Of a stretch of DNA of 64,000 nucleotides, positions 10,456 to 46,904 are shown in pieces. Source of the DNA: a virus (Duplodnaviria; Caudoviricetes). A program made the translations under genes and the position numbers. Each line of letters begins with the position of its first letter. Position 1 is the first letter of the stretch. The notes beneath the pieces are model-generated. The model did no database searches, had not been told where the DNA came from, and saw only the letters and a list, made by a program, of their open reading frames with translations. The stretch lies in IMG/VR virus record IMGVR_UViG_3300042294_003246; one strand, 5' to 3'.

Positions 10456-11406
10456 ATGAGTAAAATTGTTGTGAATATATCATCATACAAAAGAAATGAT
10501 GGTTTAGAAAAAGTAATAAATTCGGTAATTGAAGATTGTGACAAAATAAACGTTGCCTTAAATTCTTATGAAGGTGAAATACCAAAATTTCTTTTTGACA
10601 ATAAGATTAATATTTTAATAACTGACAACTCAAAGGGAGATGCTTATAAGTTTTATTTTTTAAATAATACCGAAGATGCTTATTACATTACATTAGACGA
10701 TGATATAATTTACCCTAAAAATTTTATAAAAAAAATCATTCAAAAATGCGACTTTTACGAAAGAAAAAAAGTAATTACTTATCATGGAAGAAATTTTGAA
10801 AATTTCCCTATACAATCATATTACAAATCCAAATCAAAAAGATATCATTTTTTACAAGAGGTCTCGAAAGACACAAAAGTGCAATTTGGAGGAACAGGAT
10901 TGATGTGTTTTCATACCAATTTACTTAAAATACCATTTGAATATTTTATATTTCCAAATATGGCCGATGTTTGGTTAGGAAAATATTGTATGGAAAATAA
11001 AATTGAGATTATTTGTTTGAAACACCTAAAAGGTTATATACAATATATACCACAAAAAACCACAATTTATGATGTAGAATCTAAAAATGATTTTATACAA
11101 ACACAAGTTGTAAATTCTATTTTTAATAAAACGATTAACTTAGAAAATTTAAAAAACTATAATAAAAATAATTCGTTAGAACAAATTCCTAATATATCAA
11201 TTCCGCAACCAACTCCACCACCACATGAACCGGTAAAAATTGAAAAAACTTTAGAAATAAATAAAAAAACAATTGATTACCAAAAAGTTAATAGAATATT
11301 TTCAAATTTACAAAATAATACACAACAAAAACCACAGGTTAATACAAATAATCTGAAACTTAATTCAAAACAAATTTCAACATTTAATAAAAAGAAATTC
11401 AGATGA
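10456..11406 (+). CDS. Glycosyltransferase family 2-like with low-complexity C-terminal tail
   Basis: YYITLDDDIIYP, GGTG, NMADVW; tail ends KKKFR. Confidence 0.75.
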   Translation: MSKIVVNISSYKRNDGLEKVINSVIEDCDKINVALNSYEGEIPKFLFDNKINILITDNSKGDAYKFYFLNNTEDAYYITLDDDIIYPKNFIKKIIQKCDFYERKKVITYHGRNFENFPIQSYYKSKSKRYHFLQEVSKDTKVQFGGTGLMCFHTNLLKIPFEYFIFPNMADVWLGKYCMENKIEIICLKHLKGYIQYIPQKTTIYDVESKNDFIQTQVVNSIFNKTINLENLKNYNKNNSLEQIPNISIPQPTPPPHEPVKIEKTLEINKKTIDYQKVNRIFSNLQNNTQQKPQVNTNNLKLNSKQISTFNKKKFR

Positions 11407-12359
11407 GTTTAAGTGTTATTATACCAACTTATAAAAATGTTATTTTTTTGGATGAACTTTTTTTATCTATAGAAAATAGTAGATATGATAATGAATTTGA
11501 AGTTTTGATTGGAATTGATAATTGTTATGAAACGATCGATTACATTTATAATAAAGAATTTCCAAAAAACTTTAAGTTTTTTTTCTTTTTGGAAAATCAA
11601 GGTCCCTATCTAATTAAAAATACTTTAGTTGAAATAAGTCAGTATAATAAAATTTTGTTCTTTGATTCTGATGATGTTATTCTGCCAAATTTATTTGAGG
11701 AAATTGACAGTCAATTAAACATATATGATTTGATCAAACCAAAATATATTGATTTTGAGGATAAGAACAATCAACGAGAGTTCAAACAACAAAAAAATAC
11801 ATTTGGTGAGGGAGTTTTTGGGATTAAAAAAGACATATTTTTAAGTATTAATGGATTTGAGGGATGGAGAGTTGCCGCAGACTCAGATCTTATGTCTCGA
11901 CTATATAAAATGAATTTAAAAATATTACATACGAATCATATTCTATTTCATAGAAGATTACACAAAAATTCTTTAACAATTCATCCTGAGACAAACTTAT
12001 CATCAAAAATTAGGGCTAAATATTTTTTCATTAGTAAAAATAAACCAAAACATTTTTTAAAATTGGAGGGGCTCAAAACGAGTGAATATAAAGTTGTTGA
12101 TATTGAAAATAAAGAATTTACAAAATCTTTGATTGAGTTAAAAGAAGAACACGAAATAACCGAATATGAGAAAAAAAAGTTGAAACACGAATCTATTTCT
12201 ACGATTTTTTCTAATCAACCAAAAAGAGATATTCCGAAAGAACCAAAAAAAATAAATTATGATGCCATTAACAACAACAGATCGATGTTGTATCATCCTA
12301 ATTTGAACTCTGCCTTAAAAAAGGCAAAACTTGATAATTTGAAAAAAAAATTTAGATAG
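11403..12359 (+). CDS. Glycosyltransferase family 2 with C-terminal tail
   Basis: LSVIIPTY, FFDSDD, AADSDL; tail ends KKKFR. Confidence 0.85.
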   Translation: MSLSVIIPTYKNVIFLDELFLSIENSRYDNEFEVLIGIDNCYETIDYIYNKEFPKNFKFFFFLENQGPYLIKNTLVEISQYNKILFFDSDDVILPNLFEEIDSQLNIYDLIKPKYIDFEDKNNQREFKQQKNTFGEGVFGIKKDIFLSINGFEGWRVAADSDLMSRLYKMNLKILHTNHILFHRRLHKNSLTIHPETNLSSKIRAKYFFISKNKPKHFLKLEGLKTSEYKVVDIENKEFTKSLIELKEEHEITEYEKKKLKHESISTIFSNQPKRDIPKEPKKINYDAINNNRSMLYHPNLNSALKKAKLDNLKKKFR

Positions 12360-13689: not shown

Positions 13690-14345
13690 TGGATAACGAA
13701 AAAATATTAAAACTATTCAAACATTTTGCAGGTGATCCTTTGGACATACATGGTTTGGTTGTTACACCCGTTAAAGTAGAACCATCTGTTAGAAGAAATG
13801 GTAGAACTAACATGTATTTCAGAGTTCAAAACCCGAATGATGTTTCATATTTTTCACCAATTGTTGGGGATTATATTTATGATGAAACAGAAGACTTTGG
13901 GGATTTTGTAAATGAAAAAATTGATGTGTATTTTGTACCAAACTTTAAACAAGGAATTTATTTAAATGAAGAATTAAAATCAAGAATTCAAAAAGTGTTT
14001 AATTCCGTTAAAGAGATTAATTTTACATTAGGAACTCCTTTTATTGGTTATGAAAGATACAAATTATTTATTGAATCAGTTGGTGTATCAACAAGTTATT
14101 GGGATAATGAAAGTTTTGGTTTATACAATAATGTGAAAGTAGTAAGAGCCGAAAAAGATGGTGAGTGGTGGGATCCTAAAGTTGTTGTAAGTGAATATCT
14201 TAATGACTTTCTACCTGACAAAGAAAGTTACTGGGAAACAGAAAATCTTTACCCCCAAATTGACAACATCTTAAACAATTATCCCCTATTTAGGGATCCA
14301 TACGGCAACAATTTAGGTTACTACGATACCAAGTTTATCCAATAA
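13689..14345 (+). CDS. Hypothetical protein
   Basis: 218-aa ORF translationally coupled (TAATG) to the lysozyme gene. Confidence 0.65.
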   Translation: MDNEKILKLFKHFAGDPLDIHGLVVTPVKVEPSVRRNGRTNMYFRVQNPNDVSYFSPIVGDYIYDETEDFGDFVNEKIDVYFVPNFKQGIYLNEELKSRIQKVFNSVKEINFTLGTPFIGYERYKLFIESVGVSTSYWDNESFGLYNNVKVVRAEKDGEWWDPKVVVSEYLNDFLPDKESYWETENLYPQIDNILNNYPLFRDPYGNNLGYYDTKFIQ

Positions 14346-15609
14346 CTTTTTTTGATCTTTTTTTACGGTGAAAAGAAATCACAAATCTGTGAACTTCATT
14401 TTGAACTTCAGCAAGCAAAAATCCAAACTCATTTCGTGGAATATCAAATGACGACCCGTCAGTCAAGTGGATTGTTTGAGATTGGTGTTTGTCGTTTTTG
14501 GAAATAGAAATCAAATCAATACGAGATAACAAACCAAGAGATTCAAATACTTGTTTTGCAACACCCAACTGACCTTTACCACCATCAATAACAACAAGTG
14601 AAGGTAACTCTTGTTTTTCGTTCAAAAGTCTTGTAAAACGACGAGAAAGAACTTCAGTGAATGAAGCGTAGTCATCAGGACCCTCAACAGTTTTGATGTT
14701 AAACTTACGGTAGTTTGACTTATCAGTTTTACCATTCTTGTAACGAACAAGAGCAGACACTTGACAGTCACCACTAGTGTGAGAATTGTCAAACGCCTCA
14801 ATCAAAGTAGGAACATTGATAAGACCCAAAGATTCTTTAAACTGACGAGCAACATCATTATACTTTCTAACACGAAAAGGTTCAAGTTTCTTTTGAAGTG
14901 AATCAACAACAGAGATTTTAGTTTTGAACTCTTGAGCTTTCTCAAACTCCATAGAATCAGAAAAATATTTCATAGACTTTTTCAAACGACTACGAACCTT
15001 GTCAAACTCAAAAGAAAATACTTCTTTCATCTCACTTACAATCTTCTTGTAGGAGAACTTTAGAATGTTTGAAATACAAGGTGCATTACAACGACCAAGA
15101 TGAAACTCCAAACAAGTTTTGAACTTTTCGTTTGAAATGTTTTCTTCAGTCAAGTTGTAAGAACAAGAACGAAGATTGAAGATGTCGTGAACCATTTCAT
15201 AGATCTCATAACAAGAGTTGGAACTTGTAGACTCAAGAAGGATCTGACCTGAAAAGTTAGAAGGATTACAAACTTGTAAACGAGGGAACTCCTCATCACT
15301 CAAAGTAATAAACCAACGACGAGATCTGTCGTCTTTTGCTTTGATGTTGTATTTTGGTTTCAAAGACTTGATAAGTTCGTCCTCCAACAAAAGAGCCTGT
15401 GACTCATCGTTAGTAGTCATGAACTCAACATCACGGATCTCACTCACAAGAGAAGTAGTCTTGATATCCTTGTGATTTTTTTGAAAGTAAGACTTCACTC
15501 GTTTCGGTAAAAACTTTGACTTACCCACATAGATGATCTGACCCTTCTCATTTTTGAAAAGGTAACAACCACTTGATTGGGGAATGTTTGAAAGTTTCTC
15601 TGTAATCAC
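14335..15609 (-). CDS. uvrC: Excinuclease ABC subunit C, lacking the C-terminal HhH domain
   Basis: GIY-YIG (GCYLF...IYVGKS), CLEFHLGRCNAPC, UVR coil, RNaseH-like IEAFDNSH...YRKFNIK...DGGKGQL...EVHRF; likely GTG start at 15609 behind TATATTTG (15614-15621). Confidence 0.92.
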   Translation of the reverse strand: MITEKLSNIPQSSGCYLFKNEKGQIIYVGKSKFLPKRVKSYFQKNHKDIKTTSLVSEIRDVEFMTTNDESQALLLEDELIKSLKPKYNIKAKDDRSRRWFITLSDEEFPRLQVCNPSNFSGQILLESTSSNSCYEIYEMVHDIFNLRSCSYNLTEENISNEKFKTCLEFHLGRCNAPCISNILKFSYKKIVSEMKEVFSFEFDKVRSRLKKSMKYFSDSMEFEKAQEFKTKISVVDSLQKKLEPFRVRKYNDVARQFKESLGLINVPTLIEAFDNSHTSGDCQVSALVRYKNGKTDKSNYRKFNIKTVEGPDDYASFTEVLSRRFTRLLNEKQELPSLVVIDGGKGQLGVAKQVFESLGLLSRIDLISISKNDKHQSQTIHLTDGSSFDIPRNEFGFLLAEVQNEVHRFVISFHRKKRSKKVIG

Positions 15610-15704
15610 AATACAAATATAGTGAAAATCTTTCAAATAATAACATAAACATCATAAACTTTCATTGGCCCAAACCTAATTATTTTTTTGTCGTATTTAT
15701 GTGT

Positions 15705-16760
15705 ATGAAACTAATATCTTTTATAGTATCTATATTTCTATTTTTCATTAGTTTATCACAAACTCAAACCGTAACTTTTAATTATACAGGTGCTGTTCAA
15801 ACATGGGTTGTTCCACCTTGTGTTACTTCTATCAATGTAGTCGCCGCAGGAGCAAAAGGTGGAGGTGCTATTGGAGGAAACGGAGCAAGAATAACCGCAA
15901 CAATAGCCGTAACACCAGGTCAAACTCTGAATATATATGTTGGTGGAATGGGGACATGTGGAAATAATTCAGGAGGATGGAATGGTGGAGGAACAGGATA
16001 TGCTTCTAACCCTGCGAATGTAACATATAATTCTTGTGGTGGTGGAGGTGCAACTGATATTAGAATTGGAGGAACCGCACTTGCAAATAGAGTAATTGTT
16101 GCAGGAGCGGGTGGTGGTAAAGGTGGAGGATCAAACACAAATACACCTGGTGGTGGAGCCTTATGTAATAACGGAGCAAACGGAGGAAATACCTTTGGTG
16201 CTGGCGGTGGAGGAGGAACACAAGTTGCAGGAGGAAATGGTGGTGCTCCTTGGGCAGGAACACCTCCTGGTGGTCAAGCAGGAACATTAGGTCAAGGTGG
16301 AAATGGTGGATTTTGGCAAACGGCATCAGGTGGCGGTGGCGGTGGCGGTCGTTATGGCGGTGGCGGTGGAGGAAATGATGGATGTTGCACTGGTGCTAAC
16401 GGTGGAGGTGGTGGCGGTGGAGGATCTTCACTTGTCCCTGTTGGAGGAACTTGTTTACCCACAAACAACACAGGACACGGATATTTAACAATCACTTACA
16501 CACCCGTTAATTTGGTGGTTAACCCAACCTCAACAAATGTCACATGTTTTGGATTATGTGATGGAACCGCAAACTCAAATGTAACAACACCAGGGGCCAC
16601 TTTTCTTTGGTCACCGGGAGGACAAACAACCCCTTCAATATCAAATCTTTGTCCTGGCACATATACCGTAACGGTAAATATAAGTGGTTGCACAGCAACA
16701 GGATCTGTAACTATAACCCAACCTAATCAAATATTGTTAGGTCCAATAAACCATAATTAA
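15705..16760 (+). CDS. Secreted glycine-rich-domain protein with SprB-like repeat
   Basis: Signal peptide; FNYTGAVQTWVVP...GAKGG...GGGGATDIR glycine-rich domain; VTCFGLCDG...LCPGTYTVTV SprB-like repeat; ends PINHN. Confidence 0.75.
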   Translation: MKLISFIVSIFLFFISLSQTQTVTFNYTGAVQTWVVPPCVTSINVVAAGAKGGGAIGGNGARITATIAVTPGQTLNIYVGGMGTCGNNSGGWNGGGTGYASNPANVTYNSCGGGGATDIRIGGTALANRVIVAGAGGGKGGGSNTNTPGGGALCNNGANGGNTFGAGGGGGTQVAGGNGGAPWAGTPPGGQAGTLGQGGNGGFWQTASGGGGGGGRYGGGGGGNDGCCTGANGGGGGGGGSSLVPVGGTCLPTNNTGHGYLTITYTPVNLVVNPTSTNVTCFGLCDGTANSNVTTPGATFLWSPGGQTTPSISNLCPGTYTVTVNISGCTATGSVTITQPNQILLGPINHN

Positions 16761-16769
16761 AATAAAAAA

Positions 16770-17336
16770 ATGAAAAAATTATTTGTATTACTATTCATGT
16801 TTTTGACTACAACACTTTTTGGTCAATTAACAACAAACAATCCCGACACAATTTGTTTTCAATCAGGAACCCTTTCTCAATACACCGTTACTTCAGTTGG
16901 TAATGGAAACTATAACTGGACAATCCCTGCGTGTGCAACAATCCAATCAGGGCAAGGAACAAATACAATATTTGTCAATTGGTCCAATTGTCCTGCGGGT
17001 CTTATCAATAATGGTGTGTCGGTTACTTATACAAGTCCTCAAGGGTGTTTTTCACCAGCGGTTAACCTAAATGTTTTAATTTATAATGTTGTTCCAACAA
17101 TAACTCAAATTGGACCATTTTGTTCAACAGATCCATGTGTTCCTTTAGTTGGAACTCCTGCGGGTGGGATTTGGTCGGGACCTGGTGTTGTTAATGGTCA
17201 ATTCTGTCCTCAAACTGCGGGAGCAGGAACACACACAATATCTTATTTATATTCAAACGGAGGATGTTCATTTTCAACAACAATAAACGTAGTTGTAAAC
17301 CCATTACCAACATTAACACCAATATCACATAACTAA
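16770..17336 (+). CDS. Secreted PKD-like/Ig-like domain protein
   Basis: Signal peptide; YNWT...SGQGTNTI; GPFC...GGIWSG; ends PISHN. Confidence 0.7.
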   Translation: MKKLFVLLFMFLTTTLFGQLTTNNPDTICFQSGTLSQYTVTSVGNGNYNWTIPACATIQSGQGTNTIFVNWSNCPAGLINNGVSVTYTSPQGCFSPAVNLNVLIYNVVPTITQIGPFCSTDPCVPLVGTPAGGIWSGPGVVNGQFCPQTAGAGTHTISYLYSNGGCSFSTTINVVVNPLPTLTPISHN

Positions 17337-17905
17337 TGAAACAATTATTGTTTTTGTTTTTATTTTTTAGTTTAACTTGTTTTTCACAACAAGAATTTGA
17401 AATATGTGAAAGTTCAAATACCGTGACATATTCAACTTCAATTGATATGAGTGGAACTATTGAATGGTTTTTGAATGGTTTCAGTTTAGGAAACGGAAAC
17501 GATATGAGTATTACATATAGTCAACCTGGTGATTATCAAATAGTGGCGGTTGGTTATAATGATTTAGGATGTCCAGGTCCACCTGTTGTGTATAATGTGA
17601 GTGTAACAAAATGTGATCCCTTAATTTATTGGGTCCCAAATTCTTTTACACCCGATAATAATGAATTTAATCAAACGTGGGGACCAGTAATAACAAGTGG
17701 GATTTCTTTAGAAAACTTTGAACTTACGGTTTATAATAGGTGGGGAAATATTGTTTGGCAAAGTAAAAACGCAAATACAAATTGGGACGGAACATATAAT
17801 GGTAGTTTTGTTCCTGATGGAACATACTCTTGGATTATGAAAATTGACTTATTAGACTCTGATGAATTGAAAGTTATTTCAGGTTTTGTTACTATTATCA
17901 AATAA
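17336..17905 (+). CDS. Gliding-motility-associated C-terminal domain (T9SS type B CTD) protein
   Basis: Signal peptide; WVPNSFTPDNNEFNQTW...VYNRWGNIVW...WDGTYNG...DGTYSW...GFVTIIK. Confidence 0.88.
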   Translation: MKQLLFLFLFFSLTCFSQQEFEICESSNTVTYSTSIDMSGTIEWFLNGFSLGNGNDMSITYSQPGDYQIVAVGYNDLGCPGPPVVYNVSVTKCDPLIYWVPNSFTPDNNEFNQTWGPVITSGISLENFELTVYNRWGNIVWQSKNANTNWDGTYNGSFVPDGTYSWIMKIDLLDSDELKVISGFVTIIK

Positions 17906-17914
17906 AATTGATAT

Positions 17915-18265
17915 ATGGAAATAACTAAAATAAATTATAAAGAAGTTTATGAAAACTTCAAGGAAGTAAAACCAGATCTTTTAGATGAATATGCGACTTA
18001 CTACGGATGTTATATCAAAGACAAGTTAGTTGGAATTGTTTCTTATGTTGAACATGATTCAGTTATTTATTTGTGCCATGCTTATGTTTTAGAAGAGTAT
18101 AGAGATAGGGGAATCTACAAATTACTTTGGAACTATAGAGATTCAAAAATACATGATACAGAAAAAACAATCTATGCTCACTGTAATGTTGATAGTTTGA
18201 AATACTTTATTAACAACGGTTTCTCTATTGAGAAAGCACTTTTCAAAGTTGTTAAAAACAAATAA
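17915..18265 (+). CDS. GNAT family N-acetyltransferase
   Basis: AYVLEEYRDRGIYKLL motif A; YFINNGF. Confidence 0.8.
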   Translation: MEITKINYKEVYENFKEVKPDLLDEYATYYGCYIKDKLVGIVSYVEHDSVIYLCHAYVLEEYRDRGIYKLLWNYRDSKIHDTEKTIYAHCNVDSLKYFINNGFSIEKALFKVVKNK

Positions 18266-18319: not shown

Positions 18320-18637
18320 ATGTTAAGACATCAAAACCCAATTCAAATTAAAGCGACAACAACAGGATTTGCTTCACCAGCAGAAACCTATGTTGATAAA
18401 AGGTTAGATCTAAACGACTTAATTGTTAAAGATCATTATACAACATTTTATTTTAAGTATTCAGGACCAAGTGTGTTTGGAATTAACCAAGGAGATACAA
18501 TTGTAATTGACCGAACTGAGGATCCAAAAGATGGGGATTTGGTAGTTTTAACAGAAAAAACACACTTCAAACTTAGAGAATACAAAGGACAAAAAAACTT
18601 ATGGGGAAAAGTAACATGGATATTAAAGAAAATGTAA
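18320..18637 (+). CDS. umuD: UmuD-like (S24 family) protein
   Basis: GFASPAETYVDKRLDLNDL...SGPSV...GDTIVIDR...DGDLVV; directly upstream of umuC. Confidence 0.85.
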   Translation: MLRHQNPIQIKATTTGFASPAETYVDKRLDLNDLIVKDHYTTFYFKYSGPSVFGINQGDTIVIDRTEDPKDGDLVVLTEKTHFKLREYKGQKNLWGKVTWILKKM

Positions 18638-19833
18638 GAAAGATTGGAATTATTGACTGTAACAACTTTTATGTTAGTTGTGAACGGTTATTTAACCCTG
18701 AGTCAATTGGAAGACCTACCGTTGTATTATCAAACAACGACGGATGTGTGATTGCCAGATCTCAAGAAGCAAAAGATCTTGGAATTAAAATGGGTGAACC
18801 ATTTTTCAAGAGCCGTGAGTTCATGGACCAACATAGATTTTGCGTCTATTCATCAAATTATAACTTGTATGGTGATATCTCAGATCGGGTTATGAAAGTG
18901 ATTGGTGAGTTTGGAAATGACATTGAAGTGTATTCTATTGATGAAGCTTTTGTTGATTTTTCAAACATTCCTCTTGAAGATCTAACAGAAACATTATTGG
19001 GAATCAAAGAAGAAGTAAGAAAGAAAGTTGGAATCCCTGTATCTATCGGTGTTGGTCCGAACAAAACCTTAGCTAAACTAACATCTTATTTAGCTAAACA
19101 ACAGCTAAACTATAATGGTGTGTGTTCATACTGGGACTTACCAAACTTTAGAAATATTTGTTATGGAATTGATGTAGATGAAGTTTGGGGTATTGGTAGA
19201 AAATGGGCAAAAAAATTAAAAAACATCGGTGTTGAATCGGTAGGTCAGTTTATTAACACAAACGAATATACTGTTAGAAAGTTGATGAATATCAATGGTG
19301 TAAAAACACAATTGGAGTTAACAGAGATGTATTGTTTTCCAATTCAAAAAAAATCCAAACCAAAGAAGAATATCGCTTCCACTCGTTCATTTGGAAAAGA
19401 TGTACAGGACTTTGATCAATTGGGTGAAGCGATGTATACCTACATTAAAAACGGTGTAAAAAAACTAAGTCAAAACAAATTGTTTGCAAATAAGGCAACC
19501 ATATTTGTTTCAGGAAACTATCATAAAGGAGATAAGTATCACCATTCTAAAACAATCAAACTACAAACCCCAACAAGAGATCCCGATCTTATTTGGTCTC
19601 AGATTCATGAACAATACAAAGTTCTTTGTAATAAATCTGAAAAATATAAAAAGTGTGGAATTGTTTTTAATGAACTAACTCCCGACACAATTATTCAAAC
19701 CTCTTTATTCAATGATGAGGTCCAAGTTGTTGAAGCACCACAGAATGAAACTCATGAGTGGGAAATGAGACAAGACTATATTACTCAAAAATATACTACA
19801 TCTTGGGATGAACTCCCTTATGTTTTTGTGTAG
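18601..19833 (+). CDS. umuC: Y-family DNA polymerase V catalytic subunit (start may be ATG 18616)
   Basis: IDCNNFYVSCE, VLSNNDGCVIARS, YSIDEAF, GPNKTLAKL, VWGIGR, STRSFG, YKKCGI, WEMRQ...YTTSW. Confidence 0.93.
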   Translation: MGKSNMDIKENVRKIGIIDCNNFYVSCERLFNPESIGRPTVVLSNNDGCVIARSQEAKDLGIKMGEPFFKSREFMDQHRFCVYSSNYNLYGDISDRVMKVIGEFGNDIEVYSIDEAFVDFSNIPLEDLTETLLGIKEEVRKKVGIPVSIGVGPNKTLAKLTSYLAKQQLNYNGVCSYWDLPNFRNICYGIDVDEVWGIGRKWAKKLKNIGVESVGQFINTNEYTVRKLMNINGVKTQLELTEMYCFPIQKKSKPKKNIASTRSFGKDVQDFDQLGEAMYTYIKNGVKKLSQNKLFANKATIFVSGNYHKGDKYHHSKTIKLQTPTRDPDLIWSQIHEQYKVLCNKSEKYKKCGIVFNELTPDTIIQTSLFNDEVQVVEAPQNETHEWEMRQDYITQKYTTSWDELPYVFV

Positions 19834-43709: not shown

Positions 43710-44135
43710 TTAATTTACAGAAACAAGTTCTAAATCAAAAATTAATTTTTTTCCTGCCAATGGGTGATTAGCGTCCAAAACAACATTAGTTTCGTTTACT
43801 TCTTTAACCATAACATTCATAGGTCCTTGTTGTGTCATAGTTTGTAACATTTGGCCTACCTCAACATTTTCAGGAACTCTGTCTTTTGGAACCTCAACAA
43901 CTAAATCTTCTCTAAGATCCCCATATGCTTCAGTATGATCCATCTCAATAGTTTTTTTATCACCTTCTTTCATACCCAAAAGACCTTTTTCAAAACCAGG
44001 AATTAAAGAACCTTGACCCAAAGTTGCCGATAATGGTTCACGACCTTCCATTAATGAAGTGTCAAAAACAGATCCATCTTCTAATTTTCCCGTGTAATTA
44101 ACAGTCACGGTGCTGTTTACCTCAACAATTTTCAT
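43710..44135 (-). CDS. FKBP-type peptidyl-prolyl isomerase (SlyD/FkpB-like with IF domain)
   Basis: VTVNYTGKLEDGSVFDTS...GQGSLIPGFEKGL...AYG...LDANHPLAGKKLIFDLE. Confidence 0.93.
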   Translation of the reverse strand: MKIVEVNSTVTVNYTGKLEDGSVFDTSLMEGREPLSATLGQGSLIPGFEKGLLGMKEGDKKTIEMDHTEAYGDLREDLVVEVPKDRVPENVEVGQMLQTMTQQGPMNVMVKEVNETNVVLDANHPLAGKKLIFDLELVSVN

Positions 44136-44453: not shown

Positions 44454-46904
44454 ATGAAACACATTTTATTTTTATTTTTATTCCCCCTTTTTATTTATTC
44501 TCAGTATTGTCCTTATATTGGACCTGACTTAACTTTACCTTGTGGTGTAAACTCAACAACGTTAACTGCTGATCCATCACAATGTGGTCAAGGAGCCCTT
44601 CCTCAAGGAACCTCTAATTACGGAGTTACTAACATACCTTATGTTGTACAAGTTAATAACGGAACATTGGTACAACTTAGTGATGATTCACAATCTAATA
44701 CGTTTAATATTGGGTTTACTTTTTGTTTTTACGGTTCTAATTATACACAGTTTCGTATAGGATCAAATGGATGGATTTCGTTGGGTGCTGGAGTTCAACC
44801 AGCCACTTTTGCCACTCAAGCAATACCTTCAGCAAATGCCGCAGTTCCCAAAAATTGTATTATGGGTCCGTGGCAAGATTGGAATCCAAGTTTAGGGGGT
44901 CAAATTAGATATCAAGTACAAGGAACTGCCCCTTGTCGTAAATTAGTAGTCAGTTGGATAGGTGTTCCTATGTTTTCTTGTACAAACCTTCAGGGAACTT
45001 TTCATATTATTCTTTACGAATCAACTAACGTGATTGAAAATCATATTGCAAATAAACCCGCATGTAATCAATGGGCAGGAGGAACCGCAGTTCAGGGTAT
45101 TCACAACCTTTTAGGAAATGCGGCAGTTCCTGTTGCAGGTAGAAACTCAACACAATGGACCACTGTTAACAATGCTTATCGTTGGACGCCAAGTGGAGGT
45201 GTAATTCAGCCAACATGGACTTGGTATCAGGTTGGAAACCCTAACCCAATTGGTACGGGATTGAGTATTACTGTTACTCCTCCAATCGGAGGAGCTTATT
45301 ATACCTGCCAACCAGTGTTCCCTTCTTGTAATGCTGGTTGGTCCTCTTGTAACGCAGGAGTTGGACAAGGTCCTGATACAATTTTAGTAACACCAACACC
45401 AAATTTACCACCTCCCACAATTACTCCAACAGATCCTTTGTGTAATAATGGTTGTAATGGATCAATAGTTGTAACTCCTGTTGGCGGATTAGGTCCTTAT
45501 ATTATCAATTGGTCTAATGGGTCAAACACTCTAACATTAAATAATTTGTGTTCAGGGACATATAATTTCTCTTTGACCGATGCAAATGGGTGTGTATATA
45601 ACGGAACTTCAACTTTATTAAACCCACCACCATTACAATTACCAACAGTAACGTCAACTAACCCAACTTGTTTTGGTTATTGTGACGGATCATCAATTGT
45701 TAATCCTATAGATGGACTTGCACCATACACATATCTTTGGAATGATGGTCAAACCACTCAAACGGCAACTAATTTATGTTCGGGAAACTATTCTGTGACT
45801 GTTACAGACGCAAATAACTGTCCTGTAACTCAAACCACAACGTTAGTTGATCCTCCACTTGTAACAATTAACCCGATTACAGGATCAGACACAGTTTGTT
45901 TTAACTCTACAGGTAATTTATACAACGTCTCAAGTGTTTTTCCTAACCTAAACTACGTATGGACTAACACGATGGGAAATATCTCGTCAGGACAAGGGAC
46001 AAATCAAATAAATTTGGACGTAACTGGTGTGAATGGGGGTCTATATTCCAATACTTTATCAGTTATTGGTGTAAATCAAGTTGGATGTCAGTCACAACCT
46101 CAAACTTTTTCTATTGTTGTATTGAATATACTACCTGTAATTACACCTATCGGTCCGTTTTGTGAATATGACAACTGTATTAACTTAATTGCAACCCCAC
46201 CTAATGGAATTTTCAGTGGATTAAACGTTTGGGGTAATCAATATTGTCCTGACAATGGGTTTATTGGGTTAGATTTTGTAAATTATATGTATTCTCAGTC
46301 AGGATGTTGGTTTGATACGTCAATTAACGTTCAAGTTTATCCACGACCTAACATTTTACCTGTGACAAATGGTGTTGTTGATGAGAATTTAGAGTATCAT
46401 CAAATATGTGAGGGTGATACTGTATCAGATGTGTTTAGTTTATCATCAGTTAGTGGTGGATATAACGAATGGTATGTGTTTGGGGATACAATTACTAACA
46501 ATACGTTAAATATAACGTGGGATATGGACGGTATATTCACTTTTCAGGGAGTAAGATGGGACAATGGGTGTGTTTCTAACCCCCAATCCTTCACCATAAC
46601 CTTAGAATTGTGTCCAAATGAGATATTTTACATCCCAAATGCCTTTACACCCGATGGTGATGAAAGAAATAACATATTAAAACCAATAATCACCTCAGGA
46701 GTGGACATTTTTAACTACTCTTTTGTGGTTTTTAATAGGTGGGGACAGATTGTATGGGAATCTTTTAATACCAATGTGGGTTGGGATGGGACATATAACA
46801 ATATTCCTTGTCAAGATGGGGTTTATACGTGGAAATTAAAATTTAAAAGTCCCAAAACCGATGAAATCAAAGAATTTTACGGTAGTTTTACGCTTATTAA
46901 GTAA
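44454..46904 (+). CDS. T9SS type B-sorted adhesin-like protein (SprB repeats, PKD-like, gliding-motility CTD)
   Basis: Signal peptide; two SprB-like repeats (LCNNGCNG, TCFGYCDG...TVTDANNC); GQGTNQI; C-terminal YIPNAFTPDGDERNN...FNRWG...WDGTY...DGVYTW...GSFTLIK. Confidence 0.88.
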   Translation: MKHILFLFLFPLFIYSQYCPYIGPDLTLPCGVNSTTLTADPSQCGQGALPQGTSNYGVTNIPYVVQVNNGTLVQLSDDSQSNTFNIGFTFCFYGSNYTQFRIGSNGWISLGAGVQPATFATQAIPSANAAVPKNCIMGPWQDWNPSLGGQIRYQVQGTAPCRKLVVSWIGVPMFSCTNLQGTFHIILYESTNVIENHIANKPACNQWAGGTAVQGIHNLLGNAAVPVAGRNSTQWTTVNNAYRWTPSGGVIQPTWTWYQVGNPNPIGTGLSITVTPPIGGAYYTCQPVFPSCNAGWSSCNAGVGQGPDTILVTPTPNLPPPTITPTDPLCNNGCNGSIVVTPVGGLGPYIINWSNGSNTLTLNNLCSGTYNFSLTDANGCVYNGTSTLLNPPPLQLPTVTSTNPTCFGYCDGSSIVNPIDGLAPYTYLWNDGQTTQTATNLCSGNYSVTVTDANNCPVTQTTTLVDPPLVTINPITGSDTVCFNSTGNLYNVSSVFPNLNYVWTNTMGNISSGQGTNQINLDVTGVNGGLYSNTLSVIGVNQVGCQSQPQTFSIVVLNILPVITPIGPFCEYDNCINLIATPPNGIFSGLNVWGNQYCPDNGFIGLDFVNYMYSQSGCWFDTSINVQVYPRPNILPVTNGVVDENLEYHQICEGDTVSDVFSLSSVSGGYNEWYVFGDTITNNTLNITWDMDGIFTFQGVRWDNGCVSNPQSFTITLELCPNEIFYIPNAFTPDGDERNNILKPIITSGVDIFNYSFVVFNRWGQIVWESFNTNVGWDGTYNNIPCQDGVYTWKLKFKSPKTDEIKEFYGSFTLIK

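What the first reader, a model, noticed from the sequence alone, without database searches (positions are those of the whole stretch)
15705..17905. Three-gene split copy of the 816-aa T9SS adhesin, with a shared PIxHN C-terminal motif at the split points
Seen: 15705 (SprB-like repeat at its end), 16770 (PKD-like plus GPFC domain) and 17336 (EICE domain plus type B CTD) align in order with the C-terminal part of 44454 (..TCFGYCDG..; DTVCF..GQGTNQI..GPFC..; QICEG..PNAFTPDG..). Each piece has its own signal peptide. The first two end LGPINHN and LTPISHN, at the positions of INPITGS and ILPVTNG in the fused protein, and only the last piece has a CTD. Established: T9SS cargo needs a CTD. Inference: PIxHN is an assembly or hitch-hiking signal (strand donation or covalent linkage) that lets CTD-less subunits join a modular surface fibre.
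Basis: partly seen in the sequence, partly recalled or inferred. Interest (0 to 1): 0.75.

Follow-up and report, generated by a model that had tools for sequence, protein, structure and literature searches.

The report
Split phage adhesin joined by tails
A giant lake-water phage of Bacteroidota carries a surface adhesin cut into three separately secreted proteins, and the two pieces that lack an export domain end in a near-invariant Ile-x-His-Asn/Asp tail that most likely plugs, as a missing beta strand, into the next piece, so that one export-tagged protein could carry all three to the cell surface.

Summary
Genes at 15699-16760, 16770-17336 and 17336-17905 tile in order onto residues 400-816 of the single-chain paralogue at 44454-46904 (38-44% identity). 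Each has a signal peptide with Gln at +1. [quoted passage not shown]

The first two end in ...L-x-P-I-x-H-N. The tail is conserved: 118 of 120 gene-2 relatives end PI[QS]H[ND], and 23 of 23 CTD-less gene-1 relatives end I-x-H-N on unrelated head domains. His is almost absent at 2,126 equivalent junctions inside single-chain adhesins. Codons vary synonymously, so selection acts on the protein.

The cut is a nick of one peptide bond in the loop after the first strand of the next Ig-like domain. A complex model of products 2 and 3 scored 0.68 against 0.01 for the best control. It pairs the tail antiparallel with a strand of the acceptor domain.

Best reading: a docking tag acting by strand complementation. 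Joint export through the T9SS is inferred, not shown. A covalent link is disfavoured.

One chromosomal bacterial example exists, in a Flavobacteriales MAG. I found no paper describing this. The scan has noted the same cassette on other phage DNA (e1-5339405, e1-5391309, e1-5407565).

The parts
15699..16760 (+). Gene 1 (P0001, 353 aa), the 'tip'. Signal peptide aa 1-20 with Gln21 at +1; glycine-rich head (PF12810, aa 49-245); one SprB-like Ig domain (aa about 277-341); docking tail. It has no CTD. An alternative start lies at 15705.
16722..16757 (+). Tail of gene 1 (aa 342-353, P-N-Q-I-L-L-G-P-I-N-H-N-COOH). It aligns with the first-strand segment (…L-V-T-I-N-P-I-T-G-S) of the PKD-like domain in the fused paralogue.
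16770..17336 (+). Gene 2 (P0002, 188 aa), the 'stalk'. Signal peptide aa 1-18 with Gln19 at +1; PKD_6-type Ig domain whose first modelled strand starts at aa 26; second Ig domain (GPFC motif) ending at aa 177; docking tail. It has no CTD.
17301..17333 (+). Tail of gene 2 (aa 178-188, P-L-P-T-L-T-P-I-S-H-N-COOH). It is coil in the monomer model. In the complex model it pairs antiparallel with residues 32-38 of product 3.
17336..17905 (+). Gene 3 (P0003, 189 aa), the 'base'. Its start overlaps the stop of gene 2 (TAATG). Signal peptide aa 1-17 with Gln18 at +1; acceptor Ig domain aa 18-95 that begins just after the position of the donated strand; T9SS type B CTD aa 100-189.
44454..46904 (+). Single-chain paralogue (P0004, 816 aa). 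Signal peptide, unknown N-terminal domain, two SprB repeats, PKD_6, second Ig, third Ig and type B CTD. It serves as the uncut reference for both cut sites (residues about 470-478 and 632-640).

Best explanation
The three genes encode one modular surface adhesin made of three Sec-exported subunits: a variable tip, a two-Ig stalk, and a base of one Ig domain plus a type B CTD.

Each cut is a nick of a single peptide bond. It lies in the loop that follows the first beta strand of an Ig-like domain. That strand therefore stays on the C-terminus of the upstream protein as a free tail, [LIV]-x-x-I-x-His-Asn/Asp-COOH.

In the periplasm the tail of subunit n inserts into the incomplete N-terminal Ig domain of subunit n+1. 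Its Leu and Ile fill the hydrophobic core, and its backbone pairs antiparallel with the acceptor's first own strand. This is strand complementation and gives an ordered 1:1:1 heterotrimer, not a polymer.

The only T9SS signal, the type B CTD of subunit 3, then takes the folded assembly through the host T9SS and anchors it on a PorP/SprF-type outer-membrane protein.

The His-Asn/Asp-COOH end is a feature of the free end only. It most likely latches the nick non-covalently against the acceptor's new N-terminus.

The split lets phages exchange tips while keeping stalk and base.

Shown here: colinearity, conservation, the specificity of His to free ends, and a control-tested complex model for subunits 2 and 3.

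Inferred: the 1-2 contact, periplasmic assembly, joint export, the role of His, and the benefit to the phage.
For: 1. Colinear tiling on the fused paralogue. In alignment A4, fused I-S-P-D-N-S-F-L-E-L-C faces split I-S-H-N-stop plus Q-Q-E-F-E-I-C with no residue lost.

2. The cassette, in the same gene order, occurs in 12 further phage loci. Tails are kept down to about 54% identity.

3. 118 of 120 gene-2 cluster representatives end L-[STQ]-P-I-[QS]-H-[ND]. The two exceptions are truncated fragments.

4. 23 of 23 CTD-less gene-1 relatives end I-x-H-N. None of the 50 other SprB-repeat hits does, and most of those carry a CTD of their own or are fragments.

5. Gene-1 heads are unrelated to each other: PF12810, three unknown folds, and GEVED in a bacterium. 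They share only the tail.

6. Controls for the His. At 2,126 internal junctions of the same Ig repeat in 150 giant single-chain adhesins, 16 have any His in the equivalent six residues, 2 have H[ND], and none of the 150 proteins ends in H[ND].

7. Codons of Leu, Ile, His and Asn vary synonymously. The spacer to the next ATG varies from a 1-nt overlap to 19 nt.

8. Complex model of P0002 19-188 with P0003 19-189:
- Scores were 0.68, 0.70 and 0.68 in three runs. The best of three controls was 0.01.
- This mark was reached by 58 of 80 solved complexes and 2 of 110 mismatched pairs. These counts hold only roughly, because my own alignments were used.
- The runs agree in at least 97% of contacts, and partner pLDDT is at least 79.
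- The interface is P0002 177-188 (plus 116 and 118-120) with P0003 19, 30-38, 40, 42, 69-86.
- The pairs 181/37, 182/36, 183/35, 185/33 and 186/32 have a constant sum, as in an antiparallel strand.
- L182 and I185 touch several strands, so they sit in the core.

9. Alone, P0002 is modelled with its tail 178-188 as coil and its mature N-terminus 18-25 unstructured.

10. PKD_6 coverage starts at profile position 10 in P0002 but at position 3 in the fused protein.

11. A chromosomal three-gene equivalent exists in a Flavobacteriales MAG (L028), with tails PPIIHY and GPIQHN and homologous acceptor N-termini.

12. From the literature: the T9SS moves folded proteins (review PMC9251779), and type B CTD proteins stay bound to PorP-like proteins (PMC9143113).
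Against: - The complex model reassembles a domain that exists uncut in a paralogue. Part of its score may therefore come from likeness to an intact Ig fold. It shows that the pieces fit, not that they bind in a cell.
- In the model of the fused paralogue, the equivalent segment is only a two-residue bridge next to a low-confidence loop. The donated element may be short.
- No PorP/SprF gene was found in the window ORFs tested or in two related phage records, but that search also found nothing in its control genomes.
- No transport of a CTD-less partner through the T9SS turned up in my literature searches.
- Among the 79 closest bacterial type B CTD loci, none has an upstream ORF with such a tail. 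The arrangement is rare in the likely host family.
Confidence: 0.55

Rival explanations
1. The tail docks as described, but the nick is then sealed or cross-linked covalently. Possible routes are an isopeptide or ester bond involving the terminal Asn/Asp with His as catalyst, or intein-like Asn chemistry.
For: - Asn and Asp are the residues used in Lys-Asn/Asp isopeptide bonds of Gram-positive pilins and of SpyTag (my own knowledge).
- His-Asn is the terminal dipeptide of inteins (my own knowledge).
- His is specific to the free end.
- The donor C-terminus and the acceptor N-terminus are adjacent in the model, with P0003 residue 19 in the interface.
Against: - Neither acceptor domain has an invariant or near-invariant Lys. 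The only invariant Lys in A1 is K2 of the signal peptide.
- The terminal Asn/Asp aligns with an Asp of the uncut paralogues (P-D-N). It therefore looks like an inherited structural residue.
- The bacterial gene A ends in Tyr.
- There is no Hint/intein domain.
- The acceptor's N-terminal Gln is expected to be cyclised to pyroglutamate in Bacteroidota (PMC5837995, PMC10653852), which would block it.
Confidence: 0.1
2. The tail is itself a minimal secretion or sorting signal. A host T9SS shuttle or another exporter reads it, so each CTD-less protein is exported on its own without binding its neighbours.
For: - The motif sits at the extreme C-terminus, as T9SS signals do.
- It is portable across unrelated head domains.
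Against: - It does not resemble the ends of type A or type B CTDs, which are a roughly 80-residue beta-sandwich. None is detected in P0001 or P0002.
- The tail corresponds residue for residue to a strand of the next domain in the uncut protein.
- The complex model places the tail in that domain, with controls at 0.01 or less.
- Gene order and tight coupling to the acceptor genes are invariant.
Confidence: 0.08
3. This is neutral gene fission. The three products act independently or are decaying, and the shared end merely reflects where Ig-domain linkers tolerate a stop codon.
For: Both cuts lie at linker-like P-x-[IL]-x-P-[IV] segments that also occur between domains of the fused protein.
Against: - The three intact ORFs, their signal peptides and the H-[ND] end are conserved in hundreds of 90%-identity clusters (365 hits for gene 2), with synonymous codon turnover.
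- His is nearly absent from equivalent internal junctions.
- Identical DNA is present in 16 lake-water metagenome runs dated 2016-2024. Some of these may be the source sample or one sampling campaign.
Confidence: 0.05
4. The three ORFs are translated as one chain by stop-codon read-through or frameshifting.
For: Genes 1 and 2 of the window are in the same frame and are separated by only 9 nt.
Against: - Gene 3 is in another frame and overlaps gene 2 by one base (TAATG).
- In relatives the gene 1-gene 2 spacer is 2-19 nt, in various frames.
- Every downstream ORF starts with a conserved Lys-rich, hydrophobic signal peptide followed by Gln.
- All stops are TAA, with one TAG.
Confidence: 0.01

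Closest known systems
Type B CTD cargo of the T9SS with PorP/SprF-type anchors (SprB-SprF of Flavobacterium johnsoniae; PG1035-PorP of Porphyromonas gingivalis; PMC9143113, PMC12618676)
   Same: Product 3 and the fused paralogue have a Sec signal peptide and a C-terminal CHU_C/TIGR04131 domain above the curated cut-offs. Their bodies are Ig-like/SprB-type repeat domains, as in gliding adhesins.
   Different: Two of the three subunits have no CTD at all. No cognate PorP/SprF gene was found next to the cassette. The genes are phage-borne. I found no described case of CTD-less proteins riding on a CTD protein.
Donor-strand complementation/exchange in chaperone-usher pili and in type V (FimA/Mfa1) pili of Bacteroidota (PMC4789730 and related papers)
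   Same: An Ig-like fold lacking one strand is completed by a terminal strand of the neighbouring subunit. Subunits are Sec-exported and encoded in one operon.
   Different: There is no chaperone, usher, lipoprotein precursor or protease step. The donor is the C-terminal tail, supplying the acceptor's first strand. Each subunit has at most one donor and one acceptor, so the product is an ordered heterotrimer, not a polymer. Export would be by the T9SS.
Giant single-chain Ig-repeat adhesins of Bacteroidota, including GhpA, the grappling-hook protein of Aureispira (PDB 9fls, 9flp)
   Same: Same domain type. The A1 profile finds 13,493 proteins, the top ones with up to 75 repeat copies. The best TM-scores in the Foldseek PDB search for the P0002 model are to GhpA, 0.53-0.54 at 22-23% identity.
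   Different: Those are single chains, and their inter-repeat junctions lack the His-Asn/Asp end.
Split-domain tag/catcher pairs derived from Gram-positive pilins (SpyTag/SpyCatcher type)
   Same: A terminal strand of an Ig-like domain, separated from the rest, re-docks into it. The reactive residue in those systems is Asp or Asn.
   Different: The acceptors here have no conserved Lys, so isopeptide chemistry is not supported. This split is natural, not engineered.

Membership tests
T9SS type B CTD cargo (PF13585 CHU_C / TIGR04131) | C-terminal type B sorting domain above the curated cut-off | tested here: met
   Met for P0003 (61.3 bits against 27; 48.4 against 35) and for P0004 (47.9 against 27; 41.9 against 35). 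NOT met for P0001 and P0002, which have no CTD hit at E <= 0.1.
T9SS type B CTD cargo (PF13585 CHU_C / TIGR04131) | N-terminal Sec signal peptide (in Bacteroidota usually with Gln at +1) | tested here: met
   Read directly: Lys-rich start, hydrophobic core, then Gln. Gln19 is invariant in A1, and Gln18 is kept in at least 90% of A2. No dedicated signal-peptide predictor was available.
T9SS type B CTD cargo (PF13585 CHU_C / TIGR04131) | Cognate PorP/SprF-like outer-membrane partner, often encoded next to the cargo gene | tested here: inconclusive
   No Pfam hit to PorP_SprF in five window ORFs of 300-350 aa. No PF11751 match in two related phage records, but the control genomes gave no match either. 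The host's own PorP-like proteins may serve.
T9SS type B CTD cargo (PF13585 CHU_C / TIGR04131) | Secretion depends on the T9SS | not testable with these tools
   Needs a secretion assay in a T9SS mutant.
Donor-strand complementation fibres (chaperone-usher, type V pili) | The acceptor subunit has an Ig-like fold that lacks one strand | tested here: met
   A4 tiling shows that mature product 3 begins directly after the strand segment present in the fused forms. The PKD_6 match in P0002 starts at profile position 10, against position 3 in P0004. In the P0002 monomer model, residues 18-25 are unstructured.
Donor-strand complementation fibres (chaperone-usher, type V pili) | A terminal strand of the neighbouring subunit completes that fold | tested here: met
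   By prediction only. The complex model scored 0.68 against a best control of 0.01, with an antiparallel register of tail 181-186 against 32-37. The gene 1-gene 2 pair was not modelled.
Donor-strand complementation fibres (chaperone-usher, type V pili) | Dedicated chaperone/usher, or lipoprotein precursor with proteolytic maturation; homopolymerisation | tested here: not met
   The cassette holds only the three subunit genes in all loci. The signal peptides are of the SPase I type with Gln at +1, not a lipobox. Subunit 1 has a donor only and subunit 3 an acceptor only, so no polymer is expected. It therefore works like, but is not a member of, these pilus families.
Isopeptide-forming tag/catcher domains | Conserved Lys (with a catalytic acid) in the acceptor, facing the Asn/Asp of the donated strand | tested here: not met
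   No invariant or near-invariant Lys in either acceptor domain.
Inteins (terminal His-Asn) | Hint domain with its N-terminal nucleophile and a C-extein Cys/Ser/Thr after the Asn | tested here: not met
   No Hint family in Pfam. A stop codon follows the Asn.

The most novel reading that the evidence does not exclude
[LIV]-x-x-I-x-His-Asn/Asp-COOH is a portable docking tag that lets proteins without any T9SS signal cross the outer membrane as passengers of a small carrier made of one Ig domain and a type B CTD. This would be hitch-hiking of a folded multi-subunit complex through the T9SS. The His-Asx-carboxylate would be a dedicated latch for the nicked domain. Phages of Flavobacteriales would use the system to mount exchangeable tips on the infected cell, and some bacteria would use it too.
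Probability: 0.4. Interest if true: 0.8.

Novelty: new variant of a known kind. Interest (0 to 1): 0.7.

Why it matters
T9SS cargo is defined by its C-terminal domain, and secretome predictions for Bacteroidota rest on that rule. A conserved tag that lets CTD-less proteins assemble onto a CTD-bearing carrier would add a second route to the cell surface. It would explain some CTD-less proteins in T9SS-dependent secretomes. It would also show that the translocon accepts pre-assembled hetero-oligomers.

For phage biology, it points to a widespread auxiliary cassette by which large freshwater phages probably re-dress the surface of infected Flavobacteriales with exchangeable binding tips. Gene 2 alone has hundreds of 90%-identity clusters.

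The tag and acceptor pair is small (about 11 residues and about 80 residues). If it binds as modelled, it could be tried as a natural split-domain tool for surface display.

Tried and rejected
- Whole-genome search: no genome is held for this window. There is no near match in the deposited phage collection.
- PorP/SprF partner: not found, but the search was uninformative because its controls also gave no match.
- Bacterial census by the closest type B CTDs: 79 loci of Crocinitomicaceae, Fluviicola and Lishizhenia have long single-chain proteins (median about 880 aa) and no [ILV]xH[ND]-ended upstream ORF. The bacterial example L028 has no close relative among species representatives.
- A degenerate DNA pattern scan for the tail plus the next start codon was considered and dropped. 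By my estimate it would give on the order of a thousand chance matches.
- The representative search with the gene-2 profile returned only giant multi-repeat adhesins in its top 150. It served as a control, not as a way to find more split forms.
- The first tiling alignment (A3) was mis-aligned by MAFFT and was discarded in favour of A4.
- Expression: contigs of RNA-labelled libraries from relatives (90-99% identical) cover parts of all three genes. One contig, in a run that is probably DNA, bridges the gene 2-gene 3 junction. DNA carry-over cannot be excluded, and contigs give no strand or level. The depth peak at 16266-16419 is cross-matching of the Gly-codon repeats from other organisms. None of this is counted as evidence of transcription.
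- The sigma-70 promoter and terminator scan was not above the shuffled expectation, and Bacteroidota promoters are not covered by that scan.
- Literature: searches combining T9SS with hitchhiking, piggyback or donor strand, and for type B CTD/PorP/SprF, gave no description of such a system. The paper on a lineage of large aquatic phages (PMC12619734) does not mention it.
- Read-through, intein and isopeptide readings were considered and rejected. See the rival explanations.
Full report
**Setting**

The window is AT-rich (31.5% G+C) and densely packed with short, mostly co-oriented genes. No whole genome is held for it. Gene 1 of the finding occurs on 23 contigs, the longest 298,910 bp. The stretch is present letter for letter in 16 lake-water metagenome runs dated 2016-2024; some of these may be the source sample or one sampling campaign. 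Related loci lie on IMG/VR contigs of 150-296 kb, one of them beside tail-sheath genes. The closest bacterial relatives of the CTD are in Crocinitomicaceae, Fluviicola and Lishizhenia. This is therefore a jumbo phage of freshwater Flavobacteriales, as earlier notes of this scan also said.

Three adjacent genes each begin with a Lys-rich, hydrophobic signal peptide followed by Gln. This is the Bacteroidota 'Q-rule' (PMC5837995).
- Gene 1: 15699-16760, 353 aa.
- Gene 2: 16770-17336, 188 aa.
- Gene 3: 17336-17905, 189 aa.

They align in order and without overlap to residues 400-475, 461-639 and 647-816 of the 816-aa protein at 44454-46904. Only gene 3 and the 816-aa protein carry the T9SS type B CTD. 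Genes 1 and 2 end L-G-P-I-N-H-N and L-T-P-I-S-H-N. No other ORF of 50 aa or more in the window ends in HN.

**The tail is conserved far beyond chance, and at the protein level**

- The same three-gene cassette, in the same order, occurs in 12 further phage loci at about 54-93% identity. Every gene 1 and gene 2 ends I-x-H-[N/D].
- Of 120 cluster representatives of gene 2 (365 hits in all), 118 end L-[STQ]-P-I-[QS]-H-[ND]: 107 with Asn and 11 with Asp. The two exceptions are truncated fragments.
- A search with the last domain of gene 1 separated two classes cleanly. Twenty-three CTD-less proteins all end I-x-H-N. None of the 50 other SprB-repeat proteins does; most of them have a CTD of their own or are fragments.
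- The heads of gene-1 proteins are unrelated to each other. They comprise the ALK/LTK-type glycine-rich domain, three folds with no family, and a GEVED domain in a bacterium. The shortest class shares nothing with the window's gene 1 except the tail.
- Codons for Leu, Ile, His (CAT 17, CAC 5) and Asn (AAC 10, AAT 9) vary synonymously. The distance to the next start codon varies from a one-base overlap to 19 nt, in different frames. The conserved object is therefore a peptide, not a DNA or RNA signal, and read-through is excluded.

**The His-Asx end belongs to the free end, not to the domain**

The profile of gene 2 finds 13,493 proteins. The top 150 are single-chain adhesins of 839-6,321 residues with up to 75 copies of the same Ig repeat. 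At 2,126 internal repeat junctions of these proteins, the Pro and the hydrophobic positions of the tail are shared. Only 16 junctions have any His in the six equivalent residues, and only two have H-[ND]. None of the 150 proteins ends in H-[ND].

**Where the cut lies**

In the tiling alignment A4, the uncut paralogues read ...I-S-P-D-N-S-F-L-E-L-C... The split form reads ...I-S-H-N-stop, then (after the signal peptide) Q-Q-E-F-E-I-C..., with no residue missing. The split is thus a nick of one peptide bond in the loop after the first strand of the third Ig domain. That strand stays on gene 2.

At the first junction, the tail of gene 1 aligns with the ...I-N-P-I-T-G-S segment. The Pfam PKD_6 model counts this segment as the start of the domain: the match starts at profile position 3 in the fused protein but at position 10 in gene 2.

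Modelled alone, product 2 is two confident Ig domains (pLDDT 90.5). The best TM-scores in its Foldseek PDB search are to the T9SS grappling-hook protein GhpA. Its tail 178-188 is coil and its mature N-terminus is unstructured.

**Do the pieces fit?**

One complex job was available. I spent it on products 2 and 3, using alignments of 42 and 40 relatives (39 rows used for product 3).
- Scores were 0.68, 0.70 and 0.68. The best of three controls was 0.01.
- That mark was reached by 58 of 80 solved complexes and 2 of 110 mismatched pairs. These counts hold only roughly, because my own alignments were used.
- The runs agree in at least 97% of contacts, and partner pLDDT is at least 79.
- The interface is the tail 177-188 plus the GPFC loop of product 2. 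It meets residues 19, 30-42 and 69-86 of product 3, which is its N-terminal Ig domain and not the CTD.
- The best-defined pairs (181/37, 182/36, 183/35, 185/33, 186/32) have a constant sum, which is the signature of antiparallel pairing.
- The invariant Leu182 and Ile185 touch several strands, so they fill the core.

Caveat: this is a domain that exists uncut in a paralogue, so part of the score may reflect likeness to an intact Ig fold. In the model of the fused form, the equivalent segment is only a short bridge beside a low-confidence loop. The model shows that the pieces fit. It does not show that they bind in a cell.

**Mechanism proposed**

Steps that are shown and steps that are inferred are marked in the Best explanation section. 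In outline:
- Sec export of three subunits.
- Periplasmic assembly, tail into next Ig domain, giving an ordered tip-stalk-base heterotrimer.
- Export of the folded assembly by the host T9SS through the single type B CTD.
- Anchoring on a PorP/SprF-type protein.

The last two steps rest on published properties of the system: folded cargo (PMC9251779) and type B CTD bound to PorP-like proteins (PMC9143113). They are not tested here.

The terminal His-Asx-carboxylate most likely latches the nick. Covalent chemistry is disfavoured for three reasons. The acceptors have no conserved Lys. The Asx is inherited from an Asp of the uncut form. One bacterial tail ends in Tyr.

The pay-off of the split is probably exchange of tips, since stalk and base are kept while heads differ. 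What the phage gains is open. Adhesion of infected cells, or exclusion of other phages by occupying surface anchors, are possibilities.

**Distribution**

The cassette is mainly phage-borne. One chromosomal instance was found in a Flavobacteriales MAG, between guaA-like and ftsK-like genes. It has 440-, 639- and 355-aa proteins, tails PPIIHY and GPIQHN, and acceptor N-termini homologous to those of the phage. None of 79 loci around the closest bacterial type B CTDs has such a tail, and those proteins are single chains with a median of about 880 aa.

**Novelty**

My literature searches found no description of CTD-less proteins docking onto a T9SS cargo, nor of this tail. The principle of strand complementation is known from chaperone-usher and type V pili. 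The family-defining machinery of those systems is absent here, so this works like them without being a member. I class it as a new variant of a known kind.

The scan has noted the same cassette before on other DNA (e1-5339405, e1-5391309, e1-5407565), and analogous split T9SS adhesins in bacteria (e1-1380294 and others). Those are unchecked AI notes and were used only as leads.

Noticed in passing
window 43710-44135 (-): An FKBP-type peptidyl-prolyl isomerase (PF00254, 1.9e-19) with no signal peptide lies about 300 bp upstream of the single-chain adhesin gene, on the opposite strand. The T9SS translocon is known to associate with a PPIase (PMC9251779), but any link here is unexamined.
   Followed up: partly
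window 14335-15636 (-), 18320-18637 (+), 18601-19833 (+): The cassette is flanked by DNA-damage genes. By reading of the sequence only, there is a UvrC-like GIY-YIG protein upstream and a Y-family polymerase-like ORF downstream. A UmuD/LexA-type S24 peptidase (PF00717, 7.7e-09) overlaps the start of the polymerase-like ORF. Together these form a umuDC-like pair in a phage.
   Followed up: partly
window 17915-18265 (+): A small GNAT acetyltransferase (PF13673/PF00583) starts 10 nt after gene 3. It is not part of the cassette in the other loci.
   Followed up: partly
window 10456-12359 (+): Two adjacent family-2 glycosyltransferases (PF00535), a few kb upstream of the cassette.
   Followed up: partly
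window 16770-16826 compared with P0004 residues 461-467: BLASTP extends the gene 2 alignment into its signal peptide: T-T-T-L-F-G-Q aligns with T-T-T-L-V-D-P of the fused protein. This could be a vestige of how the signal peptide arose at the cut. The segment is variable in relatives, so chance is more likely.
   Followed up: partly
L003 2473-4932: In one related phage, an 819-aa signal-peptide protein lies directly upstream of gene 1. Its end resembles a T9SS sorting domain by eye, but it was not scanned.
   Followed up: no
L044 1-2760: In a 157-kb phage contig, the cassette lies downstream of two tail-sheath genes (PF04984/PF17482), separated by one small ORF, so it sits within or next to the structural module there.
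   Followed up: no
window 16266-16419: The Gly-codon-rich part of gene 1 attracts contigs of many other organisms when reads are laid (depth up to 249, with many loose ends). Any depth-based reading of this gene is unreliable.
   Followed up: yes
P0243 (6,321 aa) and other hits: The second Ig domain of gene 2 (GPFC motif) is a tandem repeat found up to 75 times in giant Bacteroidota adhesins. 13,493 proteins match the gene-2 profile at E <= 0.001.
   Followed up: partly
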